Positions 2,941 through 40,081 of a DNA stretch of 64,000 nucleotides are shown here, one piece after another (the first letter of the stretch is position 1; the number at the start of each line of letters is the position of its first letter). The notes under the pieces were generated by a model. The model was not told where the DNA came from. It saw nothing but the letters and a program-made list of their open reading frames with translations, and ran no database searches. Source of the DNA: a virus. Lineage: Duplodnaviria; Heunggongvirae; Uroviricota; Caudoviricetes. Both the position numbers and the translations under genes were made by a program. The stretch is taken from the IMG/VR virus record IMGVR_UViG_3300028805_000076, positions 8,165 to 72,164 of that record; one strand, 5' to 3'.

Positions 2941-3834
2941 ATGGTATTTACAATTATTAAAGCTATTGCAATCGTATTTGGATTAGTGTGGTTTTATTTA
3001 TGTTTTGGCGGTAATGATAACAATCATGTAAATTGTGATGGTATCAAATTTTACAAATTACAAGATGTTAAAATGCAAAGTCCAATTGCACAAAAGATTT
3101 TCGATTTTTACAAATCAATGTTGTTGGATAAAAAACTGATTTTAGCAGAGGTGTTTTGTGATATTGATTTGCGTAGAGAATGGAATAAAATACGTAATGA
3201 TGAAAATTTGGTAAGTGGTCAAGATGCCAATATTATTGATGCATTAGATACATCTTTTTGTCATTATTTACAAGAAATAGCACCATCAAACATTATTTTA
3301 AATCCAGAAGAAAAATGTTATTTTAATTCTCAATTATGTGTAGTTAATACTGTACAAAAAATTGGAAGGAATGTAACGTATGGTGGAATTAGATTTAATG
3401 AGAATGGTGTAAGAAGTGGTAATTGTACTATATATTCAAATGACGTTAGCGGTTTTAAAGTATTTGATTTTGGTACTGTTGTAGTTACCAATCAACGAAT
3501 TATCTTTAAAGGGGAAAACAAAAACAAAGTAATCCCAATTGGTACAATTCTTAGCGTTGACAATTATGAAGATAATGGGGTAATCATTTCAATGAGTAAT
3601 CGAGAAAATCCAATTATCATTCGATTTAGAGCTGATAAGTGTTTTTATCATCGTCCACAAAGCGAGTACTATTGTTTCTATAATGACTTAAATTGGTTTA
3701 ATAAAGCAATCGATAAAGCATTGTATAAACGTTTAATGCCAAAGGAAGTCCAAGATATTAGAAAAGAAGCGGACGAGTTAAATTTTTTGGTAGCTAAAAA
3801 AACAATGGTTGCCGAAGGATTAGAAACAGAATAG
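2941..3834 (+). CDS. membrane-anchored hypothetical protein
   Basis: N-terminal hydrophobic helix MVFTIIKAIAIVFGLVWFYLCFG; 297 aa. Confidence 0.5.
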   Translation: MVFTIIKAIAIVFGLVWFYLCFGGNDNNHVNCDGIKFYKLQDVKMQSPIAQKIFDFYKSMLLDKKLILAEVFCDIDLRREWNKIRNDENLVSGQDANIIDALDTSFCHYLQEIAPSNIILNPEEKCYFNSQLCVVNTVQKIGRNVTYGGIRFNENGVRSGNCTIYSNDVSGFKVFDFGTVVVTNQRIIFKGENKNKVIPIGTILSVDNYEDNGVIISMSNRENPIIIRFRADKCFYHRPQSEYYCFYNDLNWFNKAIDKALYKRLMPKEVQDIRKEADELNFLVAKKTMVAEGLETE

Positions 3835-3857
3835 TAAATTGCAAGGATATACAATTT

Positions 3858-3905
3858 GGCACCAGTTGGATAAAAAAAATCTGACTAGTGCCTATTTTTT
3901 ATTTT
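3858..3905 (+). terminator. intrinsic terminator (ggcaccagt...actagtgcc + T-run)
   Basis: stem-loop plus T6/T4; a near-identical element recurs at 48250-48297. Confidence 0.5.
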
Positions 3906-3968
3906 ACTTAAAATAGTTACTTTTTTTCTTGTTTTTCCGTCATTTTTTTTATATATTTGTAAAAAAAG

Positions 3969-5669
3969 ATGATGGATAAAAAGCATAGGAAACCTAATGG
4001 GTATTGGAATAATTATGAGCATTGTTATGAAGAAGCACAAAAATACAAAACTAGAGGTGAATTTTCAAAAGGATGTGTTGGTGCATATTATTGGTCAAGA
4101 CTTAATGGCTGGATAGATTCTTTTGATTGGCTAGTGAATAATCAAATATTCGGCAATAACCAAGTAGATTGTGTTTATGCTTATGAATTTAATGACCAAA
4201 ATGCTGTGTATGTTGGTAGAACTTTAATGAGAAGAGTGAATAAGAGGGATTATGAACATAGACACAGAGAATATATAGACAAAAATGGTCATACTCACAC
4301 AAATTATGATGGTGTTTATAATTTTTCGTGTGATAACAAATGTGAAATTCCACCTATTAAGATTTTAAAAAATGATTTAACTCTTGAAGAAGGAAGGTTT
4401 TTTGAAAACGAATATGTTGAATCATACAGAAAAAATGGATGGGCAATTATTAATAAAGGAAAAACTGGAAAAAACAGTGGCTCTATTGGTTCATTAAATA
4501 AGGGAAAATGGAATGAAGAAAAATGTAAAATAATAGCATTAGATTGCAAGTCTTTGTCTGAATTTAAAAGAAAAAATGGTAGTGCATATGAAGCATCACG
4601 TATTAATGGATGGCTTAAAAAATTCGATTGGTTTGAAGATACTAGTCAACTTATTAAAAAAGCACTTCTACAAAAAGATAAAAAGTGGACTGAAGAAGAA
4701 TGTTATAATTTAGCAAAAACTTGTAAAACAAAATCAGAATTTCAAAATAAAAGTAGTAGAGCATATGCTGTTTCACATATTAATGGGTGGATGGAAAAAT
4801 ATACTTGGTTTGTTGATGGTTTCTCTTTAATTGAACCAATAAAATGGACTGAAGAAGAATGCAAAAAAATAGCGGTTAAATGTAAAACAAAATCAGATTT
4901 TAGAAATAAAAACGCTTCTGCATATTATTCAGCACTACATCACGGATGGATAAATAATTATGATTGGTTTATAGATGGAAATATAATTGCTGCTGACAAA
5001 CGAAGAATTTACACAGAAGAAAAATGTTTTGAAATTGCTCAGAATTGTAAAACAAAAGCGGAATTTAAAAAAGAAAATAATACAGCATATAATGTTTCAC
5101 GTATTAATGGTTGGATAAAAAACTATACTTGGTTTAAAAGTGGTATAGGAAAAGATAGAAAATGGTCAGAAAGTAATATTAAATTAGAAGCAACAAAATA
5201 CGTGCATAAACGTGAATTTATGCTTGGCTCAAACGTTGCTTATAGGAAAGCAAAAAAAAATAACATTTTAAAAACTATGTTTAAGATTATGAAATTTAAT
5301 TTTAAAGGTTATTTTGATGTACCTTGTTTCGATTTAGAAATCAATGCTGATATATCTATAAATAGTTATAAATATATACAATTCACACATGAAGAATCTC
5401 AAAAAATTGTGTTTAATTACTACAAAGAAGAAATGCAACAAGGAAATGGAATAAAAGTTAAAAATCTTGGATATGAATTTATTAGACTTACTGGTTTTTA
5501 TGATATATTTCCTAAAAAACCAAGTTGGGAAAAATTTAAAAAAGAATTTTGCCCAATTATTCTTTATACATTTGAAATAAAGGATGATATAATTCTTTTA
5601 ACACCAATTAATGTAAATGAAAATAATAAGATTTTCCAAAATGATAAAAATTTGATTTTGAATTTATGA
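3969..5669 (+). CDS. GIY-YIG nuclease-like protein with six tandem ~48-aa repeats
   Basis: VYAYEF...YVGRT...R...EH fits GIY-YIG; repeated KWTEEEC..CKTKSEF..SAY..S.INGW..Y.WF units. Confidence 0.5.
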   Translation: MMDKKHRKPNGYWNNYEHCYEEAQKYKTRGEFSKGCVGAYYWSRLNGWIDSFDWLVNNQIFGNNQVDCVYAYEFNDQNAVYVGRTLMRRVNKRDYEHRHREYIDKNGHTHTNYDGVYNFSCDNKCEIPPIKILKNDLTLEEGRFFENEYVESYRKNGWAIINKGKTGKNSGSIGSLNKGKWNEEKCKIIALDCKSLSEFKRKNGSAYEASRINGWLKKFDWFEDTSQLIKKALLQKDKKWTEEECYNLAKTCKTKSEFQNKSSRAYAVSHINGWMEKYTWFVDGFSLIEPIKWTEEECKKIAVKCKTKSDFRNKNASAYYSALHHGWINNYDWFIDGNIIAADKRRIYTEEKCFEIAQNCKTKAEFKKENNTAYNVSRINGWIKNYTWFKSGIGKDRKWSESNIKLEATKYVHKREFMLGSNVAYRKAKKNNILKTMFKIMKFNFKGYFDVPCFDLEINADISINSYKYIQFTHEESQKIVFNYYKEEMQQGNGIKVKNLGYEFIRLTGFYDIFPKKPSWEKFKKEFCPIILYTFEIKDDIILLTPINVNENNKIFQNDKNLILNL

Positions 5670-5818
5670 ATAAAAAATGGACTAAAGAAACTTGCTATGA
5701 AGAAGCCAATAAATATAAAAAAAGAGGTGATTTTGCCAAATATTGCGGTTGTGCATATAAGGTAGCAAGGAGAAACAAATGGCTTGATGAATTCTATCCA
5801 AAAAAATACACAAAATAA
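5666..5818 (+). CDS. stand-alone copy of the 48-aa repeat unit (50 aa)
   Basis: ATG overlaps the TGA of the upstream gene; MNKKWTKETCYEEANKYKKRGDFAKYCGCAYKVARRNKWLDEFY matches the repeat consensus. Confidence 0.35.
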   Translation: MNKKWTKETCYEEANKYKKRGDFAKYCGCAYKVARRNKWLDEFYPKKYTK

Positions 5819-5831
5819 CTAAATACACGTA

Positions 5832-5885
5832 ACACAAGAAACAGTCAATTTTCAGTAAAAAAACTGTTTCTTGTGTATTTTCTGG
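5832..5885 (+). terminator. intrinsic terminator (13-bp stem)
   Basis: acacaagaaacag...ctgtttcttgtgt then a T-rich tail; ends the plus block. Confidence 0.55.
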
Positions 5886-5924
5886 TAATTTTTTGAAATT
5901 TTCAGGAAAAAATTAAAAATTTTG

Positions 5925-5968
5925 AAAAAAATAAAAAAAAATTAGTCAGACCATTAAAATCTGACTAA
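5925..5968 (-). terminator. intrinsic terminator for the minus block
   Basis: ttagtcaga...tctgactaa hairpin with an A-run on plus (U-run on minus). Confidence 0.45.
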
Positions 5969-5978
5969 TTAAAGGGGG

Positions 5979-6353
5979 TTATCTATGTTGTAATATGCTG
6001 ATTTTCAGTGTTTTATTGATATTATCGATATGTTCTTCAGAGAGTGTTGTACCGAGATAGTGTATGAATTGCGCATCGCTATTATACCAGAAGCTCCAAC
6101 CTTCATAAGTATTATCCCAAGATAGAGTAGTGTTAATGAAATCTACTCTATTATTTTCAATCATGTAAGGCAGATAAAATTTGATGACATTTTGAATATT
6201 CATTTCAATTTTTTTATCTTTCTTAAAGAAGTTGTTTACTCTGGATAATACCTTTTTATTTTTTATATTATTGGCGAATTTATCTGACAGACCGTTTTGA
6301 TTAATGTATCTGATAAACAAATCAATAAGTAATTTAGTATAATATTCTTTCAT
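5979..6353 (-). CDS. small paralog-family protein (FRFLKDNxAYDxY ... EGxxFW family), member 1
   Basis: start moved to an internal ATG (6353) to match paralog N-termini; C-terminal W..T.EG..FW motif. Confidence 0.5.
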   Translation of the reverse strand: MKEYYTKLLIDLFIRYINQNGLSDKFANNIKNKKVLSRVNNFFKKDKKIEMNIQNVIKFYLPYMIENNRVDFINTTLSWDNTYEGWSFWYNSDAQFIHYLGTTLSEEHIDNINKTLKISILQHR

Positions 6354-6384
6354 AATTATAATTAAATAAATTGTTATACACATA

Positions 6385-6402
6385 GGTACTTAATTAAGTA
6401 CC
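6385..6402. repeat. 18-bp perfect palindrome GGTACTTAATTAAGTACC (copy 1)
   Basis: exact palindrome in an intergenic spacer between tandem minus genes. Confidence 0.8.
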
Positions 6403-6753
6403 CTATTTTCCATTGAATTGAGTAAAATGGTATTTGTGTGATATTAATCTCCAATTATAATCTAAATCCAACCAAAAACTATGCCCTTCAAATGTAGTTC
6501 CCCAATTAAAGAAAATGCTAATCCAAGCATCTGGATGATATTTATGTAGCAACTTATATTTCATATCAGCTTCTGAATCACAATATGGTCTACTAGAAAG
6601 ATAATTTTGCGGATGACATAATGAATAATTCAAATAAGAGTCATAAGCATTATTATCTTTCAAAAATCTAAAAAAATATTTCAAAAATTTAATTTTTAAA
6701 TTGGATTTAATTTCTAATAATTGTTCTACAGTTAATTTTTTAACGTGTGTCAT
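6403..6753 (-). CDS. small paralog-family protein, member 2
   Basis: FFRFLKDNNAYDSYLNY and FNWGTTFEGHSFW motifs. Confidence 0.5.
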   Translation of the reverse strand: MTHVKKLTVEQLLEIKSNLKIKFLKYFFRFLKDNNAYDSYLNYSLCHPQNYLSSRPYCDSEADMKYKLLHKYHPDAWISIFFNWGTTFEGHSFWLDLDYNWRLISHKYHFTQFNGK

Positions 6754-6785
6754 AATAAGAGAAATAAGTAGTGTAAGTATCTATA

Positions 6786-7106
6786 CTATTTTTTTTTTAT
6801 ATACAAATCATCATCTAATAAATCTTTCCATTTGGAATGTAAAAAGCTCCAATATAAGCTTCCTTCATCAGTTTTTCTCCAAACGAAAGCTTCCATTATC
6901 CAACTATATGGGCTTAATCGATTAAAGAATTGTCTTATTAAAGTAGGATTCACATCGTTTGTTTCTTTTATTTTTTTTAATGTTTTATACAAAGGATGTC
7001 CTGGGCACATAGCTGTATGAGACATATTGAACGTATACTTATCATATGCATTCTCATCCTTCAAGAATCTACAGAATTTTGGTATTATATCACTGTTTGC
7101 TTCCAT
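6786..7106 (-). CDS. small paralog-family protein, member 3
   Basis: CRFLKDENAYDKY and WRKTDEGSLYW motifs. Confidence 0.5.
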   Translation of the reverse strand: MEANSDIIPKFCRFLKDENAYDKYTFNMSHTAMCPGHPLYKTLKKIKETNDVNPTLIRQFFNRLSPYSWIMEAFVWRKTDEGSLYWSFLHSKWKDLLDDDLYIKKK

Positions 7107-7130
7107 ATGTTATATATATATAGATATATA

Positions 7131-7148
7131 GGTACTTAATTAAGTACC
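7131..7148. repeat. 18-bp palindrome GGTACTTAATTAAGTACC (copy 2)
   Basis: exact copy. Confidence 0.8.
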
Positions 7149-7155
7149 CCATTTT

Positions 7156-7476
7156 TTATAATACTCCAGCCATAAATTCAAAATTGAATTCATTACCTTT
7201 ATCAATTGACTGAAGAAGCTTTTTCCATTCTATATTAATATCCTTCCAAAAGTAATGGCCTTCTTTTGTTTCTCTCCAAATAAAAGCATAGAATAATAGT
7301 TTTTCTAATCGAGCAGTCTGGTAGATGTATTTATCATAATCCCTTTCGTGTTTTATTGGACTACCATTACAATATATGCCATAATAACAATTGTAAACAA
7401 ATTTATCAAAAGCGTTATGTTGTTTTAACAATCTTTCGAATTTTCCAAGTATTTCTTTACGTCTTTCGTTAGTCAT
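7156..7476 (-). CDS. small paralog-family protein, member 4
   Basis: FERLLKQHNAFDKF and WRETKEGHYFW motifs. Confidence 0.5.
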   Translation of the reverse strand: MTNERRKEILGKFERLLKQHNAFDKFVYNCYYGIYCNGSPIKHERDYDKYIYQTARLEKLLFYAFIWRETKEGHYFWKDINIEWKKLLQSIDKGNEFNFEFMAGVL

Positions 7477-7786
7477 AATTATTAGTTATTTTTTTATATA
7501 AAATTTTCCATTTATAATCAAGTTTTGACCAAAAATCCCAACCTTCTATTGTTTCAGACCACGCAAATGCATCATGAATCAAAAAAGGTAACAAATTATT
7601 TTGTTTCATTCGAATAATGTATAAATCAAAGTTTTTTTCTTTTCTTGCTGGATTACTAGTGCAAAGAACTCCATTATAACAGTAATTTACAAATATGTCA
7701 AAAACTCTCTTTTCCTTTAAAAATCTTTCAAATTTTTTAAGGATATATTTATGTTTGTTTATTGCTCTTGCATATTCTTTATTCAT
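7469..7786 (-). CDS. small paralog-family protein, member 5
   Basis: FERFLKEKRVFDIF and WSETIEGWDFW motifs; 8-nt overlap with member 4. Confidence 0.5.
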   Translation of the reverse strand: MNKEYARAINKHKYILKKFERFLKEKRVFDIFVNYCYNGVLCTSNPARKEKNFDLYIIRMKQNNLLPFLIHDAFAWSETIEGWDFWSKLDYKWKILYKKITNNYD

Positions 7787-7805
7787 ATCTTTGTTGATGT
7801 ATATA

Positions 7806-7823
7806 GGTACTTAATTAAGTACC
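7806..7823. repeat. 18-bp palindrome GGTACTTAATTAAGTACC (copy 3)
   Basis: exact copy. Confidence 0.8.
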
Positions 7824-7988
7824 CTTATATTATTTTTAGCATTTTTTTTGAAAATACAATAAATCAACATAAATATATAAAAAAAAATTGATAACGTCAA
7901 TTATCAAATATTAAAAAATATTAAAAAAAGATGAAGGTCGTTTAAGCCTCCATCTTTAACTGATAGCCAGAAATATAATATCTTTTTG

Positions 7989-8237
7989 TTATTTGAGCTT
8001 GCTTTTAAGATATTCCAACCAACGTTTGTTTACATCAGACCAGAAATCTTTGCCTTGAACTGTTTTCTTGAGGAATAATGGGTAGGTACAGAACTTCTTT
8101 GGGTCTTGAATCATCAATTGGAATTTTGCCTTATCATAGGTCTTCCACTGTGCAAGCATTTCATGCTTAAAAACTGGGTATATCTTTGTACGATATAACC
8201 AGTTAATAAAAAGCTTTACGTATTCGAACTGTGACAT
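7989..8237 (-). CDS. small protein distantly related to the paralog family
   Basis: C-terminal VQGKDFWSDVNKRW resembles the family EGxxFW...W motif. Confidence 0.45.
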   Translation of the reverse strand: MSQFEYVKLFINWLYRTKIYPVFKHEMLAQWKTYDKAKFQLMIQDPKKFCTYPLFLKKTVQGKDFWSDVNKRWLEYLKSKLK

Positions 8238-8241
8238 AAAC

Positions 8242-8484
8242 TTAATAACCGATTACAATACGAGCGTTAATGATTTCGCAAACTGGCATATAATACTTGC
8301 CTTTCACATCAACCAAATCCTTCTGTTTAATATTGGCTTTGTCGAAAGGGAATACATCAGCCAAGACTTTCAACTGATTGTTAATTTTGGTCTGAATATA
8401 GTTTGGGCGATAATCTGATGGGTTGATAATGATAGCTTCTGGTACGAGCTGTTTAACGGTTAAAATTACATCTAATTTTGCCAT
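8242..8484 (-). CDS. hypothetical protein
   Basis: 80-aa ORF, 4-nt spacing to the neighbour. Confidence 0.45.
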   Translation of the reverse strand: MAKLDVILTVKQLVPEAIIINPSDYRPNYIQTKINNQLKVLADVFPFDKANIKQKDLVDVKGKYYMPVCEIINARIVIGY

Positions 8485-8629
8485 AATAGTAAAAAAGTAT
8501 TAAAAGTTGACATTTATGTTTTTTTCGTAATGCAAAATTAATACATTTTTCTGTAAAAAGCAAGTTTTGCAAATTAATTAACCATTTATTAACTGAATAT
8601 ATAAAAAATGTTAACACAATAAAAAAAGT

Positions 8630-8690
8630 TGGTAAAAAATTTGGAGATGCCATAAAAAAGCATTAACTTTGCAGCGAGGGAAATAGATGG
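8630..8690 (+). promoter_or_regulatory. Bacteroides-type promoter with extended conserved motif TAACTTTGCAGCGAGGGAA
   Basis: -7 box TAnnTTTG at 8664-8671 followed by the conserved CAGCGAGGGAA. Confidence 0.45.
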
Positions 8691-8830
8691 TCTTGCTTGG
8701 ATACACAGTTTTATTTGGATGAATTTATGGTGTTATAACCCAATCAAAATAATAGGAATCATTTTGATTTCCCATATATTTTATATATAATAGACATAGT
8801 TATTAACACTTTAATTATTTCTATTATATT

Positions 8831-8995
8831 ATGCTATTCGAAGTAACTGAAAATATTGTAGCTACAACTACAGTCACTGTAGAAGCTGCAAATGAAGATG
8901 AAGCTTATGCAAAAGCTGACGAAATTGTTGCAAATATGGATATTTCACAGTTTATGTTGGGTGCTAAATTGGAGGGAAGTTTGCAGAGAATTTGA
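8831..8995 (+). CDS. small acidic protein (54 aa)
   Basis: ATG..TGA ORF below the track cutoff, between promoter 8664 and terminator 9034; antisense promoter downstream. Confidence 0.35.
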   Translation: MLFEVTENIVATTTVTVEAANEDEAYAKADEIVANMDISQFMLGAKLEGSLQRI

Positions 8996-9033
8996 TTAAT
9001 AGATTCAAAATTTTATGTTTGTTATTTTTGAAA

Positions 9034-9066
9034 GATGTGTTTCACAACACATCTCTTTTTTTTTGT
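9034..9066 (+). terminator. intrinsic terminator (gatgtgt-ttcacaa-cacatc + T10)
   Basis: hairpin followed by a long T-run. Confidence 0.6.
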
Positions 9067-9069
9067 CAT

Positions 9070-9110
9070 CTGATGACGCTGCAATTCCCTCGCTGCAAAG
9101 ATACGACTTT
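9070..9110 (-). promoter_or_regulatory. minus-strand copy of the TATCTTTGCAGCGAGGGAA promoter motif
   Basis: reverse complement of 9081-9103 is TATCTTTGCAGCGAGGGAATTGC. Confidence 0.4.
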
Positions 9111-9213
9111 TTTTTGAAAGTACCAAATATTTCTTGTACTTTAACATTTATTTAACACAATAAAAAAAAGAGCACCACCTTTTGGGTGATGCCCTTTGCA
9201 GAATGTTCACGTG

Positions 9214-9528
9214 TTAGATGAACGTGGTGAATGGAACGAAGTCCGTGCCGTTATCGTACTTAATCGTGCAGTACTTCTCGCTGAAATGGAGACGTACACC
9301 GAAGCGCTGAATAAGAGCGTTCACGCGGCTGCATGTGGTCTTTGAGAAGCGGCAAGGATGATTCTCCATATCGGTAATGGTCACATAATCGCGTGTCGCG
9401 TTGGCGATGTGTACACCGTGGAGGTAAACCTTGGATACACCGTTGCGTGTGATAACTTGCGTATTGCTCTTGAAGAAGTTACGGCCATTCATAATGGCTT
9501 TGTTCATTTCTTTCTCAATCTGTCTCAT
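9214..9528 (-). CDS. hypothetical protein
   Basis: 104-aa ORF directly downstream of a minus promoter. Confidence 0.5.
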   Translation of the reverse strand: MRQIEKEMNKAIMNGRNFFKSNTQVITRNGVSKVYLHGVHIANATRDYVTITDMENHPCRFSKTTCSRVNALIQRFGVRLHFSEKYCTIKYDNGTDFVPFTTFI

Positions 9529-9544
9529 AATTGTTACTGTTTTA

Positions 9545-9600
9545 TTGTTTTTGATGGTGCAAAGATAGGGTATTTTGAGCTAATATGCAAGAAAATATTA
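9545..9600 (-). promoter_or_regulatory. Bacteroides-type promoter (-7 box TATCTTTG on minus)
   Basis: plus-strand gcaaagata at 9560-9567; leader AT-rich. Confidence 0.5.
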
Positions 9601-9649
9601 ATCTTTAACAAAACTTTAACTGATGTGTTAAATTAATGTTAAATAACCA

Positions 9650-9700
9650 GAGAAAGTTGCAAATACCAAATAAAAGTCGTATATTTGCACCATCAAAATT
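9650..9700 (+). promoter_or_regulatory. Bacteroides-type promoter (TATATTTG) with the conserved leader
   Basis: -7 box at 9680-9687 then CACCATCAAAATTAAACAATACATTAAAAAA leader before ATG 9729. Confidence 0.5.
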
Positions 9701-9728
9701 AAACAATACATTAAAAAATATAAGAACT

Positions 9729-10043
9729 ATGACAGTAGCAGAACCCCAATTTCACAAGTTAGCTGACGAATACGAGAAGCTTATCCGCAAATTTTTCAAG
9801 GTAAACAACATCAAGGAAGTTGTTTGCACCGACAAGAAAGAACACTTCTTTGACCTTATTGAAGTAAAGAAAAACGGCACAATGACTGTGTATGCTCACG
9901 GTTTGACCAAGACAACGTGGAAGAAGTTGTATTTCGATTTTACAGTTGATTATGCTATATGTCTTGCCAATATGGAGCACGATTTGTTCTTGCAGCAACG
10001 CCAAGGCAAACACGATAAGTTTAACTTTTATTTTTACGATTGA
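9729..10043 (+). CDS. hypothetical protein
   Basis: start set at ATG 9729, ~40 nt after the promoter; the track ORF began upstream inside the promoter. Confidence 0.5.
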   Translation: MTVAEPQFHKLADEYEKLIRKFFKVNNIKEVVCTDKKEHFFDLIEVKKNGTMTVYAHGLTKTTWKKLYFDFTVDYAICLANMEHDLFLQQRQGKHDKFNFYFYD

Positions 10044-10570
10044 TTATGAATAAGAAGTTTTATGTCATCTTGGGTGACGGTGAGTGTGAACGCGCAATAA
10101 CCCCTCTCTGCGACACTGAAGAAGAGGCAGTTGAAAAAGCCTATAAGGTAACTAATACAATCATTGCAAATAAGAAGGAGTTTTGCAAGAAGCTTCGTGA
10201 AGAAAGTTTCACCACTGATACCAAAGATAATGAGTACTACTTGTTTGGTGCTGATGTCCATTTCATCCCAAACATCTACTACATTTCTGAAGCGGATAAG
10301 GATAGTATTAACGAATCTATTGCTGTTCAATTCCCCATCAAAATCGAATCAAATCGAGAGACGAAGTTTGTTATGTGCTCTTACGACAGCAAACATAACA
10401 TAAACATTATGTCTTTGTTTTGTGACACAGTACCAGAATGCTTGAAAGACTTCGTAGAGTCCAATTATATGGTCTTGATTCCATCAATCATTGAGGATGT
10501 GGTTGGCAATTGGCGCACAGTCATCAACAACAAAGTGTATTTCATTGTTCAGCTTAATGTCTATGCCTAA
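10040..10570 (+). CDS. hypothetical protein
   Basis: 176-aa ORF, ATGA overlap with the upstream gene. Confidence 0.5.
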   Translation: MIMNKKFYVILGDGECERAITPLCDTEEEAVEKAYKVTNTIIANKKEFCKKLREESFTTDTKDNEYYLFGADVHFIPNIYYISEADKDSINESIAVQFPIKIESNRETKFVMCSYDSKHNINIMSLFCDTVPECLKDFVESNYMVLIPSIIEDVVGNWRTVINNKVYFIVQLNVYA

Positions 10571-10730
10571 AAAGTTACATATTGTAGTCCCCAAAGCTTT
10601 GGTGAAGCTTGATAATCTGCAAGTCCGTATGGCTTCAGATTATCCCTACGACAACAAACCAACCTATGACGAAGTGCGCCAAGAGATTATCAAAATCCTT
10701 GATATGTTTGAAGATGTTAGCTATAATTAG
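10557..10730 (+). CDS. hypothetical small protein
   Basis: ATG 10557 gives a 14-nt overlap with the upstream gene; the track ORF (10491) is longer. Confidence 0.35.
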   Translation: MSMPKKLHIVVPKALVKLDNLQVRMASDYPYDNKPTYDEVRQEIIKILDMFEDVSYN

Positions 10731-10769
10731 CTAACATTTTTTTTATGTGTTAAATAAATGTTAAACCGT

Positions 10770-10815
10770 CAAAAATATTTGGCGGTTTCTATAAAAATCC
10801 ATATCTTTGCAGCGA
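10770..10815 (+). promoter_or_regulatory. TATCTTTGCAGCGAGGGAA promoter motif copy
   Basis: -7 box 10802-10809. Confidence 0.4.
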
Positions 10816-10833
10816 GGGAAATATGCATATATA

Positions 10834-10872
10834 TAAAAAAAACCATCCTATCGTATTGATAGGATGGAAAAC
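10834..10872. terminator. bidirectional hairpin terminator (ccatcctatc...gataggatgg)
   Basis: 9-10 bp stem flanked by A-run and A/T tail between convergent genes. Confidence 0.45.
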
Positions 10873-10886
10873 TATGAAAAAAGAAA

Positions 10887-11450
10887 CTACTTTTGTATAA
10901 GGAACCTCGGAATGTTGCAACCAACGAAGTTGCCCAATACAATTAAAGGATAATACTTAAAAGCATATAGCTGAATCAGATAATGTTCGGCAGAGAACAT
11001 ATAATAAGCATCAGCAATACTGTGATACATTCCACTCAATATGAATGCAGCTACACCGAAAACTACTAACAGTTTGTTGCCTTGCCTACCACTATTGACG
11101 ATTAACGTCATAATCAGACCACAACCAATACCCTTAAGGAAGTTATCAAATTGACCATCAACTATTCGGTCATCAATGATATTGCTTGCCATATCGTGCT
11201 CTCCTATAACAAAAGCAACCAATGCACAACCACCGATATTCAAGAGCAGTATGCCAAGTAGCTGTAGCCATTCCTTTGGCTGTTTATAATTGAAGAATCC
11301 AGCTTGCCCCGTGTATAAAGGAAGCTTATATTCAATCACAGCAAGCAATCCAAAGGAGAAAAGTACGCTACCATACACTTGTCCAACGTTCAGATATACC
11401 GCTCCACCAAGGGCAATAAGAACGCCCGATAGGATTGAAGACTTAATCAT
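10887..11450 (-). CDS. integral membrane protein (multi-pass)
   Basis: several long hydrophobic segments across 187 aa. Confidence 0.5.
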   Translation of the reverse strand: MIKSSILSGVLIALGGAVYLNVGQVYGSVLFSFGLLAVIEYKLPLYTGQAGFFNYKQPKEWLQLLGILLLNIGGCALVAFVIGEHDMASNIIDDRIVDGQFDNFLKGIGCGLIMTLIVNSGRQGNKLLVVFGVAAFILSGMYHSIADAYYMFSAEHYLIQLYAFKYYPLIVLGNFVGCNIPRFLIQK

Positions 11451-11788
11451 ATCTTTTCAAGTTTAACGTATGAGTGTACGATATTAGGTACTGTGATTTC
11501 GTCTTCGTCATTCAAGCCATTGAACTCACGAATAGACTGTGCCATTGTTTCACAGTTGCTAACAAAATCAAGTGTTGGATATTTAATCACAAACTCACTT
11601 CCCTTATAGTTAGGACAATAGCCAAAGCCATCATATAGCTGAAAAGTCATTGTATGAGGCTTGTTGTCATTGAAGATATTGTTGGAAGCATCGTCATTGA
11701 ACTGAAACGTCTGAATGCAAATTAATTTGCCATACAGTTTCTCTAAAATTTCTTTTGAAATAGGATTTTTCACTTTATTCATATACAA
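11447..11788 (-). CDS. hypothetical protein
   Basis: 113-aa ORF, ATGA overlap. Confidence 0.5.
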   Translation of the reverse strand: MYMNKVKNPISKEILEKLYGKLICIQTFQFNDDASNNIFNDNKPHTMTFQLYDGFGYCPNYKGSEFVIKYPTLDFVSNCETMAQSIREFNGLNDEDEITVPNIVHSYVKLEKI

Positions 11789-11862
11789 TATAAAATTAAA
11801 ATTTCATATCGTAATTATATATTCAAAATATGAATTACGGTATGAAATTTTATTAAATAATG

Positions 11863-12291
11863 TTAATTCTTCTTCTGTTTGTCTTTCTTGGAAGCTTTAA
11901 CCAATGTAGTACCATCACACGTAACACTAATGTGAAACTTCGAAATACCATTGATTTCAGCAGCCTTCATCTTGAACCATTTGCCGTGGTCTACTGGTAG
12001 ATGTCTATCTGGACAACTTGGGTCTGGTGTTTGGTTTGTCCACAGATGAATCATCTCGTGGATAAGGACTTCAAAGGCAGTTTGCTCTTCCAATTGATAA
12101 TAATCAGTCATCCTAATAACATCAATGCTGAACTCATTTCCGTGAGGGGACAAGTCGATGCACTGTTGAAATTCTCCCAAATGAGTCTTCTTGTGTTCAA
12201 TCTCAAAAACTGGTTCTTTCAATTTATTCTCAAAGAATCTCTTGTTGAAGATAGGGAAGTACTTCTTCATAAACTCAATAGTTGGAATCAT
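11863..12291 (-). CDS. SprT-like zinc metallopeptidase domain protein (HEMIH)
   Basis: FEVLIHEMIHLW HExxH motif. Confidence 0.45.
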   Translation of the reverse strand: MIPTIEFMKKYFPIFNKRFFENKLKEPVFEIEHKKTHLGEFQQCIDLSPHGNEFSIDVIRMTDYYQLEEQTAFEVLIHEMIHLWTNQTPDPSCPDRHLPVDHGKWFKMKAAEINGISKFHISVTCDGTTLVKASKKDKQKKN

Positions 12292-14488: not shown

Positions 14489-14506
14489 GGTACTTAATTA
14501 AGTACC
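14489..14506. repeat. 18-bp palindrome GGTACTTAATTAAGTACC (copy 4)
   Basis: exact copy, followed 18 nt later by a hairpin with a T-run. Confidence 0.8.
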
Positions 14507-14556: not shown

Positions 14557-14595
14557 AACCCACGAAAAAATAGGTAAAGTTATGAAGAAAGTATG

Positions 14596-14685
14596 TTGGT
14601 AGAGATGGATTTGAACCACCGAAGCCTCATAAGAGGCGACTGTGCCACTAAACACAGCCCCATTTGACCGCTTTGGTATCTACCG
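14596..14685 (-). tRNA. class-II-like tRNA (long variable arm), atypical 8-nt anticodon loop, anticodon unresolved
   Basis: acceptor cGGTAGA/TCTACCa, D arm CCA-AAGCGGTCAAA-TGG, T arm GGTGG-TTCAAAT-CCATC, variable hairpin GCCTC-TTAT-GAGGC; anticodon stem CTGTG/CACAG encloses TTTAGTGG. Confidence 0.45.
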
Positions 14686-14687
14686 AA

Positions 14688-14779
14688 TGGTTGATAGAGA
14701 GGGATTCGAACCCTCGAAGCCTCCGAAGAGGCGGTTGAGCTACTAACACAACCCCATTTGACCGCTTTGGTATCTATCG
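14688..14779 (-). tRNA. class-II-like tRNA, paralog of the previous, encoded CCA, anticodon unresolved
   Basis: same 5' half; T arm GAGGG-TTCGAAT-CCCTC; 3' end TCTATCA-A-CCA; loop region TTAGTAG. Confidence 0.45.
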
Positions 14780-14872: not shown

Positions 14873-15325
14873 TTACTTCAAATACAAGTTCTCCAAACGG
14901 TTGTTGAACTTATTACCATCTTTATGGAAAAGACGATGACCACCTTCTATTGAGCCATTGAATGTTTCATAGACAAGATAACAAGCTGTAAGCTGTACTT
15001 GCCCCCACATACTGCGATTCAAGCGAACTGTCGGATTCTTGTGGCTTTTGTTTGCTGTCTGCTTCATAACATGCTTGGTGTATTTGTTGCGAATACGACC
15101 AAGGTTTGAAGCCTCATAGCCAATATATGGGGAATCTTTCCAAAACTCAATTTCATCCACGTCATAGTTGATAACAAGCCATCCATATTCATCAGAAAGA
15201 TAGTTGTTGATGGCATCATAATCGTCAGCTTCAATGTAATTTGGAAGCTCTACCTCGGTTGGAAGGGTGATGTCTTCGCCATCAGTCTTCCATACAATGT
15301 TAATAGCTTTATATTTACAATCCAT
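14873..15325 (-). CDS. HNH homing endonuclease (NUMOD4 + HNH_3-like)
   Basis: YIGYEASNLGRIRN (NUMOD4-like) and GGHRLFHKDGNKFNNRLENL (HNH); start set at ATG 15325 below the promoter. Confidence 0.6.
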   Translation of the reverse strand: MDCKYKAINIVWKTDGEDITLPTEVELPNYIEADDYDAINNYLSDEYGWLVINYDVDEIEFWKDSPYIGYEASNLGRIRNKYTKHVMKQTANKSHKNPTVRLNRSMWGQVQLTACYLVYETFNGSIEGGHRLFHKDGNKFNNRLENLYLK

Positions 15326-15334
15326 AGTGATATT

Positions 15335-15380
15335 GTTTTTTAACGCTGCAAAGATAGGTAAAAATCGGCAATGCTGCAAG
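15335..15380 (-). promoter_or_regulatory. Bacteroides-type promoter (TATCTTTGCAGCG on minus)
   Basis: plus gctgcaaagata 15346-15356. Confidence 0.5.
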
Positions 15381-15424
15381 ATTTAACGACACTTTAACAA
15401 AACATTAACCAATATGTTAAATTA

Positions 15425-15485
15425 AAGTTAAAGTACCAGAAATATTTGGAATTGTAGTGAAAAAGCTCTATCTTTGCAGCGAGGA
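15425..15485 (+). promoter_or_regulatory. repeat-module promoter TTAAAGTACCAGAAATATTTGG...TATCTTTGCAGCGAGG
   Basis: -33 TTTG and -7 TATCTTTG (15469-15476); module repeated at 17460, 20925, 23770. Confidence 0.45.
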
Positions 15486-15498
15486 AAATAGCGTACGG

Positions 15499-15537
15499 CA
15501 AAAAAAATGGCATCATCTCATTTCGAGATAATGCCAT
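15499..15537 (-). terminator. intrinsic terminator for minus gene 15556-16005
   Basis: aatggcat...atgccatt stem with an A8 run on plus (U8 on minus). Confidence 0.5.
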
Positions 15538-17335: not shown

Positions 17336-17369
17336 AGTTTTATTTGCTTTTAATGTTAGTAATTGTTTT

Positions 17370-17410
17370 AATTTCACGGTGCAAAGATAGGGAAAAAATC
17401 AATACCATCC
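17370..17410 (-). promoter_or_regulatory. promoter + conserved leader (TATCTTTGCACCGTGAAATTAAAACAATTACTAACATTAAAA)
   Basis: plus gcaaagata 17382-17389. Confidence 0.55.
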
Positions 17411-17459
17411 AACTTTTTTCTTAACATTAACAAAACTTTAACCGATATGTTAAATTAAT

Positions 17460-17515
17460 GTTAAAGTACCAGAAATATTTGGAATTGTCACCAAAAACCC
17501 TTATCTTTGCAGCGA
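17460..17515 (+). promoter_or_regulatory. repeat-module plus promoter TATCTTTGCAGCGAGGGAAAGAGCATACAGC
   Basis: -7 box 17502-17509. Confidence 0.45.
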
Positions 17516-17552
17516 GGGAAAGAGCATACAGCTACTTGTCATCAAAAGAGAC

Positions 17553-20092: not shown

Positions 20093-20110
20093 GGTACTTA
20101 TTTAAGTACC
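20093..20110. repeat. palindrome variant GGTACTTATTTAAGTACC (copy 5)
   Basis: 8-bp arms intact, centre changed. Confidence 0.7.
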
Positions 20111-20385: not shown

Positions 20386-20813
20386 TTAAATATACTCCAA
20401 TACCTCACAGTAGATTTTTTCCCTCTCTTCGTCAGTCAAGACAAGCTCTTCACAGTTCTCGTCTTCGAAAGTATTACCGCACCATACTTCGATGTTACCT
20501 TCTTCGTTAACTACGAGACAGTCCACACGAGCACCATTGTGACGAATGCCGAAGTCACTTACAGTGATGCAGTTGTCTTCATATTCTTCAAAAAGGTCGT
20601 AAATACAAGTTTCAACACTTCCAATAACGTTACTGTTTTCTTTTTTGATGTTAATACTTTATAGTGTTGCCACACACCATCATTTACACACTGTTGAGCA
20701 AGCTCTTCAGCTTCTTCCTTGGTTTTGAACTTCTTTGGGCTAATACACACACCTTGCTTTGCCAAAGCAATCAAGAACCATTTTTTATTTGAATTGTTAT
20801 TAGTTGTTGCCAT
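20386..20813 (-). CDS. hypothetical protein; two frames joined by a putative -1 frameshift at A AAA AAG
   Basis: 0-frame ORF 20559-20813; the -1 frame is open for 84 codons (20386-20646) with no ATG, starting exactly at the heptamer (minus strand, 20640-20646). Confidence 0.35.
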
Positions 20814-20829
20814 ACATCTTTGTTTTTTT

Positions 20830-20860
20830 CTTGGTGCAAAGTTACGAAATTAATAGCATA
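20830..20860 (-). promoter_or_regulatory. Bacteroides-type promoter (TAACTTTG on minus)
   Basis: plus caaagtta 20837-20844. Confidence 0.5.
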
Positions 20861-20924
20861 TCAGCAAGAAATAATACTGTATTAACAAATTTTTAACAGT
20901 ATAGTTAAATCCAAGTTAAAGTAC

Positions 20925-20970
20925 CAGAAATATTTTGTACTCTCACGAAAAAGCCCTATCTTTGCAGCGA
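20925..20970 (+). promoter_or_regulatory. repeat-module plus promoter TATCTTTGCAGCGAGGGAAAGAGCATACAGC
   Basis: -7 box 20957-20964; the first ~40 transcribed nt match copy 17510-17550. Confidence 0.45.
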
Positions 20971-21007
20971 GGGAAAGAGCATACAGCTACTTGTCATCAG
21001 AAGACAC

Positions 21008-21037: not shown

Positions 21038-21074
21038 AAAAACATTAAAAAACAATAACTATTAACAAAGCTTG

Positions 21075-21147
21075 TTGTCCCTCCAAGACTCGAACTCGGA
21101 CTTTCAGACTCAAATTCTGACGTGCTAACCATCTACACCAAGGGACA
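21075..21147 (-). tRNA. tRNA-Gln(UUG)
   Basis: acceptor TGTCCCT/AGGGACA, anticodon stem TCAGA/TCTGA, loop ATTTGAG, T arm CCGAG-TTCGAGT-CTTGG. Confidence 0.7.
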
Positions 21148-23649: not shown

Positions 23650-23705
23650 GCTATTGTTTTTAATGTTAGTAATTGTTTTAATTTCACGGTGCAAAGTTAC
23701 GCATT
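23650..23705 (-). promoter_or_regulatory. promoter + conserved ~60-nt leader module
   Basis: plus caaagtta 23692-23699; aatgttagtaattgttttaatttcacggtgcaaag shared with 17340-17390. Confidence 0.55.
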
Positions 23706-23769
23706 TTTTTTGACTCAACCAAATTTTTTACAAAAAAAATGATGCCTATTAAGTTTATTTAACAATTGT

Positions 23770-23835
23770 GTTAAATTCAGGTTAAAGCCATTAAAATATT
23801 TTGTACTCTCACAAAAAAGCACTATCTTTGCAGCG
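23770..23835 (+). promoter_or_regulatory. repeat-module plus promoter TATCTTTGCAGCGAGGGAA
   Basis: -7 box 23823-23830. Confidence 0.45.
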
Positions 23836-23854
23836 AGGGAATTGAGTGTGGTCA

Positions 23855-23872
23855 GATACTTAATTAAGTACC
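23855..23872. repeat. palindrome copy 6 (GATACTTAATTAAGTACC)
   Basis: one substitution from the consensus; lies ~25 nt after the plus promoter. Confidence 0.7.
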
Positions 23873-24658: not shown

Positions 24659-24676
24659 GGTACTTATTTAAGTACC
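24659..24676. repeat. palindrome variant GGTACTTATTTAAGTACC (copy 7)
   Basis: same variant as copy 5. Confidence 0.7.
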
Positions 24677-26188: not shown

Positions 26189-26206
26189 GATACTTATTTT
26201 AGTACC
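26189..26206. repeat. degenerate palindrome copy 8 (GATACTTATTTTAGTACC)
   Basis: arms largely conserved. Confidence 0.5.
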
Positions 26207-39295: not shown

Positions 39296-39553
39296 TTATC
39301 TTTGTTTATTTTTTGCATATTCACTATATTTATTTGAAATTTTGTGCCAAAATTCATATCCATCTTCTGTACACGAGAAAAAAAATGCGGTTTCAATCAA
39401 ATCTATTCTGTCTAAATGTACTATAACATACATAGCCCAATTAACCCAGTTGTAAAATCTAATGTGGTGGCTCTTAAAGAAAGCGTTGAAATATTTCTCA
39501 TAAACTCCGTTATCTTTCAAGAATCGTAAAAAGTCAATTAGTGTTTTATTCAT
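39296..39553 (-). CDS. small paralog-family protein (second array), member 6
   Basis: LIDFLRFLKDNGVYEKYF ... CTEDGYEFW. Confidence 0.5.
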   Translation of the reverse strand: MNKTLIDFLRFLKDNGVYEKYFNAFFKSHHIRFYNWVNWAMYVIVHLDRIDLIETAFFFSCTEDGYEFWHKISNKYSEYAKNKQR

Positions 39554-39812
39554 TATATACTTGTTTTAAATCAACTAAAATTTTATACCAAAAATCATAT
39601 CCCTCATTTGAAGAAGCAAATGTAAATGCCCCTCCAAGAATATAATTTTTAGGTATTGTAAAATTAGACAATCTACGCTCAGCCCAATTCAGCCAATATT
39701 TTGTTTTGTCTTGATTACCTATCATTCTATATGAAAAAAAATTTTCAAAATAAGCATTATACGCTGAATGGTCTTTTAACACCCTTAAAAACTGCTTTAT
39801 TGTTTCATTCAT
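39546..39812 (-). CDS. small paralog-family protein, member 7
   Basis: IKQFLRVLKDHSAYNAYF ... SSNEGYDFW. Confidence 0.5.
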   Translation of the reverse strand: MNETIKQFLRVLKDHSAYNAYFENFFSYRMIGNQDKTKYWLNWAERRLSNFTIPKNYILGGAFTFASSNEGYDFWYKILVDLKQVYNE

Positions 39813-40081
39813 AATTTAATTTTATCAAGTTCGCTTACAATATCCCACCAAAATTCTGAACCTTCTTCGGAAAATGAAAAACTGAATGCACCACTAACAA
39901 GCATAGAAATTTCTCTACCAAATACTTCACCATTTAAGCACATATTAGCCCAATATTTCCAATATGTATATGGGTCAACATCATCTATTTGACGGCTTGA
40001 AAAGAAATTGTTGAAATATTTCTCATAAGCCCCCTTATTTTTCAATATTCTGAAAAAGAGCTGTATATTTTTTTCGTTCAT
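39809..40081 (-). CDS. small paralog-family protein, member 8
   Basis: IQLFFRILKNKGAYEKYF ... SEEGSEFWW. Confidence 0.5.
   Translation of the reverse strand: MNEKNIQLFFRILKNKGAYEKYFNNFFSSRQIDDVDPYTYWKYWANMCLNGEVFGREISMLVSGAFSFSFSEEGSEFWWDIVSELDKIKL

What the first reader, a model, noticed from the sequence alone, without database searches (positions are those of the whole stretch)
5979..8237. Tandem array of five or six small paralogous proteins (FRFLKDNxAYDxY ... W.ET.EG..FW family)
Five consecutive minus-strand genes encode 105-125-aa proteins, and a sixth is more distant. All share an N-terminal (F/L)xRFLK(D/E)xxAYDxY motif and a C-terminal aromatic W(R/S)xTxEGxxFW...W motif, but are otherwise highly diverged. 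Three further members sit at 39296-40081. Each gene in the first array is preceded by the 18-bp palindrome GGTACTTAATTAAGTACC. A diversifying multi-copy family of this kind in a phage is typical of host-interaction or anti-defence loci, but its function is unknown.
Basis: seen in the sequence. Interest (0 to 1): 0.6.

Follow-up and report, generated by a model that had tools for sequence, protein, structure and literature searches.

The report
Fast-evolving small phage protein family array
A large gut or rumen phage carries nine diverged copies of a small helical protein of unknown function that is widespread in phages and evolves faster than its neighbours, which suggests a host-binding accessory protein rather than an enzyme, but no function has been shown.

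Summary
The gene family is real. Six consecutive minus-strand genes (5979-8237) and three more (39296-40081) encode 82-124-aa proteins. A profile built only from other phages' sequences recognises all nine (E 2.5e-10 to 9e-22).

The palindrome claim is only partly right. GGTACTTAATTAAGTACC precedes three of the six array genes. It also occurs at five other intergenic sites, so it is a phage-wide regulatory element, not a mark of this family.

An exhaustive search finds 3,715 cluster representatives. They occur as single genes, as tandem gene arrays (up to 13 copies) and as 2-8 repeats within one protein. The family is found in Crassvirales, in other large phages and in one 5.8-kb microvirus, and is rare in bacterial genomes.

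Against a ~95%-identical relative, the family shows a marked nonsynonymous excess (75:22 versus 57:117 in neighbours), and one member is replaced by a 47%-identical allele.

Best reading: a non-enzymatic binding scaffold, probably directed at host proteins. This is an inference, not a demonstration.

The parts
5940..5970 (-). Intrinsic terminator (13-bp stem plus T-run) that closes the array
   Evidence: -14.6 kcal/mol, z -5.05
5979..6353 (-). Family member g6, 124 aa (an alternative ATG at 6383 gives 134 aa); divergent member with a C-terminal extension
   Evidence: E 5e-12; dN/dS 1.38 against L004
6385..6402 (.). 18-bp palindrome GGTACTTAATTAAGTACC (class A), 31 nt upstream of the g6 ATG
   Evidence: conserved at the same place in L004/L005
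6403..6753 (-). Family member g5, 116 aa; replaced by a 47-50%-identical allele in the otherwise ~95%-identical relative
6786..7106 (-). Family member g4, 106 aa
   Evidence: E 9e-22; dN/dS 1.29
7131..7148 (.). 18-bp palindrome (class A), 24 nt upstream of the g4 ATG
7156..7476 (-). Family member g3, 106 aa; its start overlaps the end of g2 (7469-7476)
7469..7786 (-). Family member g2, 105 aa; the protein modelled with AlphaFold2 (pLDDT 89.4)
7806..7823 (.). 18-bp palindrome (class A), 19 nt upstream of the g2 ATG
7920..7957 (-). Terminator-like hairpin plus T-run separating g1 from g2-g6
   Evidence: -14 kcal/mol, z -3.1
7989..8237 (-). Family member g1, 82 aa, the most distant; it starts 4 nt after the stop of the unrelated 80-aa gene 8242-8484
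   Evidence: E 2.5e-10
39296..39553 (-). Family member, 85 aa (second cluster)
39546..39812 (-). Family member, 88 aa (second cluster)
39809..40081 (-). Family member, 90 aa (second cluster; the only acidic copy, pI 4.9); lies just downstream of the Metallophos gene 40182-40931
14489..14506 (.). Same palindrome outside the array, upstream of an 80-aa gene and the ResIII helicase operon
20093..20110 (.). Palindrome variant (class B, TTAAATAA centre), followed about 70 nt later by a Bacteroidota-type promoter
23855..23872 (.). Palindrome with 1 mismatch, intergenic, following a terminator hairpin
24659..24676 (.). Palindrome variant (class B)
26189..26206 (.). Palindrome variant (class B, 3 mismatches)

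Best explanation
The nine genes encode copies of one uncharacterised, phage-borne helical domain of about 85 aa. Its conserved residues form a structural scaffold: an aromatic and aliphatic core (F, F-L, Y, F, W, F-W, W), a Thr/Glu helix cap and a Gly turn. Its exposed positions and central loop vary freely.

I infer that the proteins are non-enzymatic binding modules made as accessory proteins. Each paralogue would bind a different, or a differently shaped, target, most probably host proteins such as defence or regulatory factors. Duplication, rapid amino-acid change and allele swapping would track variation in those targets.

Shown here: homology, the predicted fold class, the distribution, the copy-number pattern and the accelerated protein evolution.

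Inferred: that the function is binding, that the targets are host proteins, and the timing of expression.

The 18-bp palindrome is a separate, phage-wide regulatory element. It is either a promoter or operator, or a 5' mRNA hairpin, and it divides genes g2-g6 into three units.
For: - Real family: all nine proteins match an HMM built without window sequences.
- Very widespread: 3,715 representatives at E<=1e-3.
- Mostly viral: about 95 of 119 motif hits in IMG/VR are true members, against 9 of 120 in bacterial genomes.
- Present across unrelated viruses: Crassvirales, a phage with a T4-type prohead protease (this window), and a 5.8-kb microvirus. The function therefore cannot depend on one phage's own machinery.
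- No enzyme signature. Conserved columns are F, L, K, Y, A, W, T, E and G only. There is no hit in Pfam, NCBIfam, PADLOC or PDB.
- The AlphaFold2 model is a confident helical bundle (pLDDT 89.4) with a low-confidence, length-variable central segment.
- Nonsynonymous excess against neighbours: 75:22 versus 57:117, p 1e-12. dN/dS is 0.77, 1.29 and 1.38 for three members, against 0.34 or less for neighbours.
- Substitutions cluster at the variable positions inside the C-terminal motif.
- g5 is swapped for a 47%-identical allele within about 95%-identical flanks.
- Expansions recur independently: 13 copies in L055, 9 in L060, 8 or more in L006, and 2-8 repeats within single polypeptides.
- In Crassvirales and other contigs the genes sit in blocks of small co-directional unknown ORFs.
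Against: - No target, no expression data and no phenotype are available.
- dN/dS near 1 rests on 4 synonymous and 25 nonsynonymous changes per gene. It is equally compatible with relaxed constraint. One orthologue even replaces the nearly invariant Gly.
- Most members are basic (median pI 9.1). This would also fit nucleic-acid binding, or may simply reflect AT-rich coding.
- The family is single-copy in most phages.
- No known anti-defence fold or family matches.
- No conserved neighbour points to any pathway.
Confidence: 0.35

Rival explanations
1. The proteins are small nucleic-acid-binding proteins: transcription or translation regulators, or architectural DNA- or RNA-binding proteins. The paralogues would recognise different sites, and the tandem repeats in long homologues would give multivalent binding to a polymer.
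For: - 55 of 69 members have pI above 8, and K/R residues are conserved at K17, R21, K24 and K92.
- Homologues carry 2-8 repeats in one chain, as expected for binding a polymer.
- Some loci lie next to RNA-repair genes: Thg1 overlaps a member in L006, RtcB and RNA ligase are present in L251, and Metallophos lies beside the second window cluster.
- Expansions of small DNA-binding domains in large phages are documented, for example about 35 zinc-ribbon copies in Bacillus phage G (PMC7824862).
Against: - No helix-turn-helix or other nucleic-acid-binding family is detected.
- One window copy and the long repeat proteins P0021 and P0030 are acidic.
- The conserved positions are mostly buried-type aromatic residues.
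- Basic pI is expected anyway in a 26-30% GC genome.
- RNA-repair neighbours are not consistent across loci.
Confidence: 0.22
2. The genes are superinfection-exclusion or immunity-like proteins. Each paralogue would neutralise a different toxin or effector from competing phages or bacteria, by analogy with the tandem immunity-gene arrays of polymorphic toxin systems.
For: - Tandem diverged paralogues, repeats within single polypeptides and allele replacement resemble immunity-gene arrays. That resemblance rests on general knowledge and was not tested here.
- The distribution is viral and patchy.
Against: - No toxin gene lies next to either cluster in the window or in the related loci.
- The family is rare in bacterial genomes (9 of 120 motif hits), whereas immunity families are typically abundant there.
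Confidence: 0.1
3. The copies are decaying or neutral duplicated ORFs with little present function, or minor structural or assembly proteins.
For: - dN/dS is about 1 in two copies, and the conserved Gly is lost in one orthologue.
- No function can be assigned.
Against: - All nine ORFs are intact.
- Order and number are conserved in relatives.
- dN/dS is 0.23-0.45 in three copies, including the deeply diverged g5 pair.
- The core motif is kept across thousands of homologues.
- The genes lie outside the structural-gene context.
Confidence: 0.1

Closest known systems
PHROG 16354 (also 10949, 25460 and 20568), phage protein clusters of unknown function
   Same: Direct sequence-profile matches. Seven of the 9 window proteins and 42 of 69 aligned homologues hit phrog_16354, mainly through the C-terminal W-x-x-T-x-E-G-x-x-F-W region.
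   Different: These PHROGs carry no annotation. The matches are weak (best E 2e-7) and mostly partial, so the window proteins extend these clusters rather than sitting inside them.
Hypothetical proteins of Crassvirales: cr6_1 gp79 (YP_010112668.1), cr56_1, and Rudgehvirus jaberico WEU69917.1
   Same: Same domain (HMM E 4e-13 for cr6_1). They lie in blocks of small unannotated genes.
   Different: They are single copies in phages of about 90-100 kb. The window phage is not crAss-like (it has a T4-type prohead protease) and has nine copies.
Lineage-specific expansions of small domains in large phages, for example about 35 zinc-ribbon copies in Bacillus phage G (PMC7824862)
   Same: Many paralogous small proteins of one simple domain in a large phage genome, with function inferred only as binding.
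   Different: The fold is different (all-helical, with no metal ligands conserved). Here only the three-gene cluster and the g2/g3 pair are clearly local duplications.
Early anti-defence gene sets that share a conserved regulatory sequence in archaeal viruses (PMC11065993), and Aca-regulated acr operons
   Same: Small fast-evolving accessory genes preceded by a shared, conserved, partly palindromic regulatory motif.
   Different: Here the motif also precedes a helicase operon and other units. No regulator has been identified. Neither early expression nor any anti-defence activity has been shown.
Bromodomain-type left-handed four-helix bundles

Membership tests
The F-x-R-F-L-K / W-x-x-T-x-E-G-x-x-F-W phage domain (family as defined here; overlaps PHROG 16354) | Significant match to a profile built from homologues outside this phage | tested here: met
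The F-x-R-F-L-K / W-x-x-T-x-E-G-x-x-F-W phage domain (family as defined here; overlaps PHROG 16354) | Both motifs present: an N-terminal helix F..(R)FLK...Y..Y and a C-terminal (A)F.W..T.EG..FW.....W | tested here: met
   Alignments A1 and A2. g1 (7989-8237) and g6 (5979-6353) have degenerate N-terminal motifs. The second-cluster copies have F in place of the first W.
PHROG 16354 | hmmscan match to the PHROG profile | tested here: met
   7 of 9 proteins match at E<=0.1 (best 3.8e-6). The matches are partial (profile positions 47-69 for g2).
Any curated Pfam, NCBIfam or PADLOC family | Match at or near the curated threshold | tested here: not met
   No consistent hit for the 9 window proteins, 69 homologues or 20 long homologues.
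Bromodomain | Four-helix bundle with ZA and BC loops forming an acetyl-lysine pocket (conserved Asn/Tyr) | tested here: inconclusive
MazG-like dATP/dGTP diphosphohydrolase (PF18909) | Presence of the PF18909 domain | tested here: not met
   Only one distant homologue (P0077) fuses PF18909 (E 5e-30) to two copies of the domain. The window proteins lack it.
Aca-controlled anti-defence operon | Palindromic operator in the promoter, an adjacent helix-turn-helix regulator, and a demonstrated inhibitor | tested here: inconclusive
   A palindrome is present at 3 of the 6 genes and is conserved in relatives. No HTH regulator was identified in the array. Inhibitor activity cannot be tested with these tools.
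   56 of 63 IMG/VR stretches hold a single copy. Expansions (2, 2, 2, 2, 3, 8 and 13 copies) are sporadic. The stretches are short, so these counts are lower bounds.

The most novel reading that the evidence does not exclude
The array reveals a very large phage domain family that no curated library yet describes. It has at least 3,700 clusters at 50% identity. It occurs as single genes, gene arrays and intra-protein repeats, and it is found in both tailed phages and microviruses. On this reading it is a new helical fold that serves as a general, hypervariable-surface scaffold with which phages bind and neutralise host defence or regulatory proteins.
Probability: 0.25. Interest if true: 0.65.

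Novelty: new member of a known kind. Interest (0 to 1): 0.4.

Why it matters
If the domain is a general binding scaffold aimed at host factors, its thousands of variants would be a large, unexplored source of phage-encoded inhibitors. Many come from phages of gut and rumen Bacteroidota. The nine-copy phage would then offer a natural panel of specificities to test.

As things stand, the result mainly adds an anatomical and evolutionary description to a family that was already clustered in PHROGs without annotation. It also corrects the idea that the palindrome belongs to the family.

Tried and rejected
- Megablast of 5000-12000 against INPHARED found no match. tblastn with g2 found nothing. Only a crAss-type member retrieved annotated phages, all labelled 'hypothetical'.
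- Pfam, NCBIfam and PADLOC scans of window members, 69 homologues and 20 long homologues found nothing consistent.
- The search for related loci with the alignments failed because no stretch was conserved enough. I replaced it with a degenerate DNA pattern for W-x-x-T-x-E-G-x-x-F-W.
- The two indexed homologue searches returned only close relatives and no source names. The cluster look-up gave no names beyond 'hypothetical protein'.
- Guilt by association failed. Clustering the neighbouring ORFs across loci gave only lineage-specific unknown ORFs. RNA-repair and Metallophos neighbours are not consistent.
- I tested whether the palindrome is tied to the family. It is absent from the other arrays examined (L055, L060, L006), so I rejected the idea.
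- I considered whether the palindrome acts as a terminator for the genes. It follows canonical terminators at other sites and lacks a T-run on the coding strand, so I rejected this.
- I briefly considered stop-codon recoding to explain the short ORFs at 14-34 kb. I set it aside because the helicase and NAPRTase genes in that region are intact.
- A literature search for the palindrome sequence found nothing.
Full report
**1. The observation**

The region 5979-8237 holds six consecutive minus-strand ORFs:
- g6, 5979-6353: 124 aa from the ATG used by two of three gene calls and by orthologues; 134 aa if the ATG at 6383 is used.
- g5, 6403-6753: 116 aa.
- g4, 6786-7106: 106 aa.
- g3, 7156-7476: 106 aa.
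- g2, 7469-7786: 105 aa.
- g1, 7989-8237: 82 aa, the most distant member.

A second cluster of three ORFs lies at 39296-39553, 39546-39812 and 39809-40081 (85, 88 and 90 aa).

All nine align (A1). They share an N-terminal helix motif F-x-R-F-L-K-x-x-x-(A)Y-x-x-Y and a C-terminal motif (A)F-x-W-x-x-T-x-E-G-x-x-F-W-x(6)-W.

Homology does not depend on the window's own sequences. An HMM built from 60 homologues from other sources scores the nine proteins at E 9e-22 to 2.5e-10. A six-frame scan of the whole window finds exactly these nine. Pairwise identities are 13-42%.

The palindrome statement is only partly right. GGTACTTAATTAAGTACC occurs exactly at 6385, 7131 and 7806, upstream of g6, g4 and g2 only. 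It occurs again at 14489 (exact) and at 20093, 23855, 24659 and 26189 with 1-3 mismatches. That is 8 sites against 0.07 expected by chance.

**2. Anatomy of the locus**

Read on the minus strand, the order is as follows:
- the unrelated 80-aa gene 8242-8484, followed 4 nt later by g1;
- a hairpin plus T-run terminator (about 7920-7957);
- an AT-rich spacer;
- palindrome, then g2 and g3 (overlapping ORFs);
- palindrome, then g4 and g5;
- palindrome, then g6;
- a strong terminator (5940-5970).

The same order, and palindromes at the same four positions (including the one before the helicase operon), are kept in a related phage (L004/L005).

The palindrome sites fall into two classes:
- **Class A** has a TTAATTAA centre (6385, 7131, 7806, 14489). 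It lies 19-33 nt upstream of a start codon and is followed by TATATA-like sequence.
- **Class B** has a TTAAATAA centre (20093, 24659, 26189). About 70 nt further on lies a motif TTTG...TA(T/A)CTTTGCACCGT. From general knowledge this resembles the Bacteroidota -33/-7 promoter consensus.

At sites outside the array the palindrome sits just after canonical terminator hairpins. It is therefore not the terminator of the upstream unit.

I conclude that it is a phage-wide regulatory element, either a promoter or operator or a 5' mRNA hairpin. It is absent from arrays of this family in other phages.

**3. The phage**

The window lies on a 141-kb metagenomic contig (ERZ27256871). Relatives occur in JGI samples 3300031994 and 3300032030 and on a 370-kb contig.

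The window encodes:
- a T4-type prohead protease (Peptidase_S77);
- a NAPRTase;
- a ResIII helicase;
- an RNA ligase;
- a Metallophos phosphoesterase;
- a 2,378-aa protein with WG repeats.

GC content is 26-42%. It has no close relative among 50,697 deposited phage records. The repeated TAnnTTTG-type motifs suggest a Bacteroidota host. This is an inference.

**4. The family outside this phage**

An exhaustive profile search of 1.84 billion cluster representatives gave 3,715 hits at E<=1e-3 and 143 at E<=1e-10.

Many hits are stand-alone proteins of 80-135 aa. Of the 150 best hits, 55 are 200 aa or longer, and nearly all of these carry 2-8 tandem copies of the domain in one chain. The longest of these often match the C-terminal motif alone.

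A degenerate DNA pattern for W-x-x-T-x-E-G-x-x-F-W returned 119 IMG/VR stretches, about 95 of which hold an HMM-confirmed member. The same pattern in 596 Gb of bacterial and archaeal genomes returned 120 stretches, of which only 9 are true members. Those come from Alistipes, Tidjanibacter, Bacteroidales, Anaerovoracaceae, Saccharibacteria and Sulfurospirillum assemblies. The family is therefore predominantly viral.

It occurs in three kinds of virus:
- **Crassvirales**, as single-copy 'hypothetical proteins' inside blocks of small genes: cr6_1 gp79, cr56_1 and Rudgehvirus jaberico of Bacteroides cellulosilyticus.
- **Large phage contigs.**
- **A complete 5.8-kb microvirus**: OQ686887.1, CDS 3790-4047, E 3e-9.

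Copy number is usually one: 56 of 63 stretches with a confident hit hold a single copy. Expansions recur independently: 13 tandem genes in L055 (a 266-kb contig), 9 in L060 (229 kb), 8 or more in L006, 3 in L042, and multi-domain proteins in L008.

**5. What kind of protein it is**

No curated library knows the domain.
- Pfam, NCBIfam and PADLOC give nothing consistent for the window proteins, 69 homologues or 20 long homologues.
- A profile search of PDB sequences is empty.
- Only PHROGs of unknown function match: 16354, 10949, 25460 and 20568.

The AlphaFold2 model of g2, built with the 69-sequence alignment, is confident (pLDDT 89.4, pTM 0.79). It is all-helical: long N- and C-terminal helices, two shorter helices, and a low-confidence central segment. 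The model of g6 agrees (pLDDT 80).

Structural searches gave no convincing neighbour:
- BFVD returns only uncharacterised members of the same family.
- AFDB50 could not be searched.

The conserved columns are F19, (R21), F22, L23, K24, Y29, Y/F32, N35, I70, A73, F74, W76, T79, E81, G82, F85, W86, L89, (K92) and W93. This looks like an aromatic core with a Thr/Glu helix cap and a Gly turn. It does not look like a catalytic constellation (inference).

The central region varies in length and sequence. Most members are basic: the median pI is 9.1, and the window copies range from 8.7 to 9.8 except one at 4.9. The long repeat proteins, however, look rich in acidic residues (sequences; their pI was not computed).

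The only fusion to a known domain among those examined is P0077. It joins a MazG-like dATP/dGTP diphosphohydrolase N-domain (PF18909, E 5e-30) to two copies of the family domain.

**6. Evolutionary behaviour**

Against the relative L004/L005 the region is about 95% identical at the DNA level. Across g5 it drops to 60-72%. The two g5 alleles share 47-50% of residues and have dS 0.87, which indicates replacement by recombination rather than local divergence.

For the other members, dN/dS is:

| Gene | dN/dS |
|---|---|
| g1 | 0.30 |
| g2 | 0.77 |
| g3 | 0.23 |
| g4 | 1.29 |
| g6 | 1.38 |

Ten neighbouring genes range from 0.00 to 0.34.

Pooled nonsynonymous to synonymous differences are 75:22 in the family against 57:117 in the neighbours (Fisher p 1e-12). 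Without the large helicase the neighbour figure is 46:55 (p 5e-6). Counts per gene are small (4 synonymous changes in each of g4 and g6), so positive selection cannot be separated from relaxed constraint.

In g2 and g4 the replacements concentrate at the non-conserved positions inside and just after the C-terminal motif. One orthologue replaces the nearly invariant Gly.

On a neighbour-joining tree the three genes of the second cluster form a clade (35-42% identity), and g2 and g3 are sisters (41%). The remaining array members are as distant from each other as from homologues in other phages. Array 1 is therefore either old or assembled from several sources.

**7. Interpretation**

The evidence supports a non-enzymatic, structurally simple domain. 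It is mobile among very different phages, is duplicated repeatedly, and changes its surface quickly.

The explanation I consider most likely (confidence about 0.35) is a binding scaffold directed at variable targets, probably host proteins such as defence or regulatory factors. The paralogues would cover different targets. Presence in a microvirus and in Crassvirales argues that the function does not depend on any one phage's own machinery.

The rivals are:
- **Nucleic-acid binding or regulation (0.22).** For: basic charge, conserved K/R, intra-chain repeats, and occasional RNA-repair neighbours. Against: the neighbours are inconsistent.
- **Immunity or superinfection-exclusion proteins (0.10).**
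- **Decaying ORFs or minor structural proteins (0.10).**

None of these was tested functionally, and neighbourhood analysis yielded no conserved partner.

**8. Comparison with what is known, and novelty**

The family overlaps unannotated PHROG clusters and unannotated Crassvirales proteins, so its existence is recorded in databases but uncharacterised.

As a phenomenon, a tandem array of fast-evolving small accessory genes with shared upstream motifs is familiar in phages. Examples are the expansions of small domains in jumbo phages (PMC7824862) and the anti-defence gene sets that share regulatory sequences (PMC11065993).

I therefore class it as a new member of a known kind, of moderate interest. 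The breadth of the family (thousands of clusters, three architectural forms, two viral realms) and the lack of any Pfam model or fold neighbour make it a reasonable candidate for experimental follow-up.

Noticed in passing
window 3969-5669 (+) and 5666-5818 (+): A 566-aa protein holds about five internal repeats of a roughly 60-aa unit (KWTEEEC..A..CKT..EF......AY..A...GW......WF). The adjacent 50-aa ORF is one more such unit. The only match is PHROG 20046 (unknown function). In the related phage this gene is replaced by a 375-aa protein that is only 32% identical.
   Followed up: partly
window 56511-57671 (+): The T4-type prohead protease (Peptidase_S77) matches Pfam only over residues 244-350, with a weak Intein_splicing hit at residues 107-237. 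The protease may be interrupted by an intein. The next gene (57692-58678) has DUF723, DUF4379 and CapR-type zinc-finger modules.
   Followed up: no
window 9535-9710, 15325-15500, 17358-17533, 20813-20988, 23668-23855: An intergenic cassette of about 170 nt is repeated at least five times. It holds a plus-strand CTATCTTTGCAGCGAGGG motif, paired TTTAAC/GTTAAA repeats, and a minus-strand CCTATCTTTGCACCGTGAAA motif 129 nt away. These look like divergent Bacteroidota-type promoters with regulator sites. CTTTGCACCGT occurs 7 times exactly on the minus strand between 17 and 27 kb.
   Followed up: partly
window 14595-14685 and 14688-14779 (-): ARAGORN calls two adjacent, unusually long tRNA-like genes (91 and 92 nt). 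It calls one with an undetermined, four-base anticodon 'tagt' and the other as tRNA-Thr(agt). A tRNA-Gln(ttg) lies at 21074-21147.
   Followed up: no
window 6403-6753 versus L004 10343-10690: One family member is swapped for a 47-50%-identical allele (dS 0.87) inside flanks that are about 95% identical between two related phages. This is a clear recombinational cassette exchange.
   Followed up: yes
L250 (OQ686887.1, microvirus) 3790-4047: A complete 5.8-kb Microviridae genome encodes an 85-aa member of the same family between the pilot-protein gene and the replication-initiator gene.
   Followed up: partly
L055 2953-6616 (IMGVR_UViG_3300002092_001784, 266 kb): Thirteen head-to-tail genes of the same family, each about 80-85 aa and spaced about 245 nt apart. 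This is the largest array seen.
   Followed up: partly
L006 4107-5254: A Thg1-like (tRNA-His guanylyltransferase family) gene overlaps the start of a family member by 4 nt. An RNA ligase and a Band_7 gene lie nearby. Bacteroidota-type TAtCTTTGCA promoter motifs recur across the locus.
   Followed up: partly
P0077 (distant homologue, 272 aa): A MazG-like dATP/dGTP diphosphohydrolase N-domain (PF18909, E 5e-30) is fused to two copies of the family domain. This is the only fusion to a known domain that I found.
   Followed up: partly
window 6385-6402, 7131-7148, 7806-7823 (+ strand): On the plus strand (antisense to the genes) the palindrome is followed by T-rich sequence and scores as terminator-like. 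It might also block antisense transcription.
   Followed up: no
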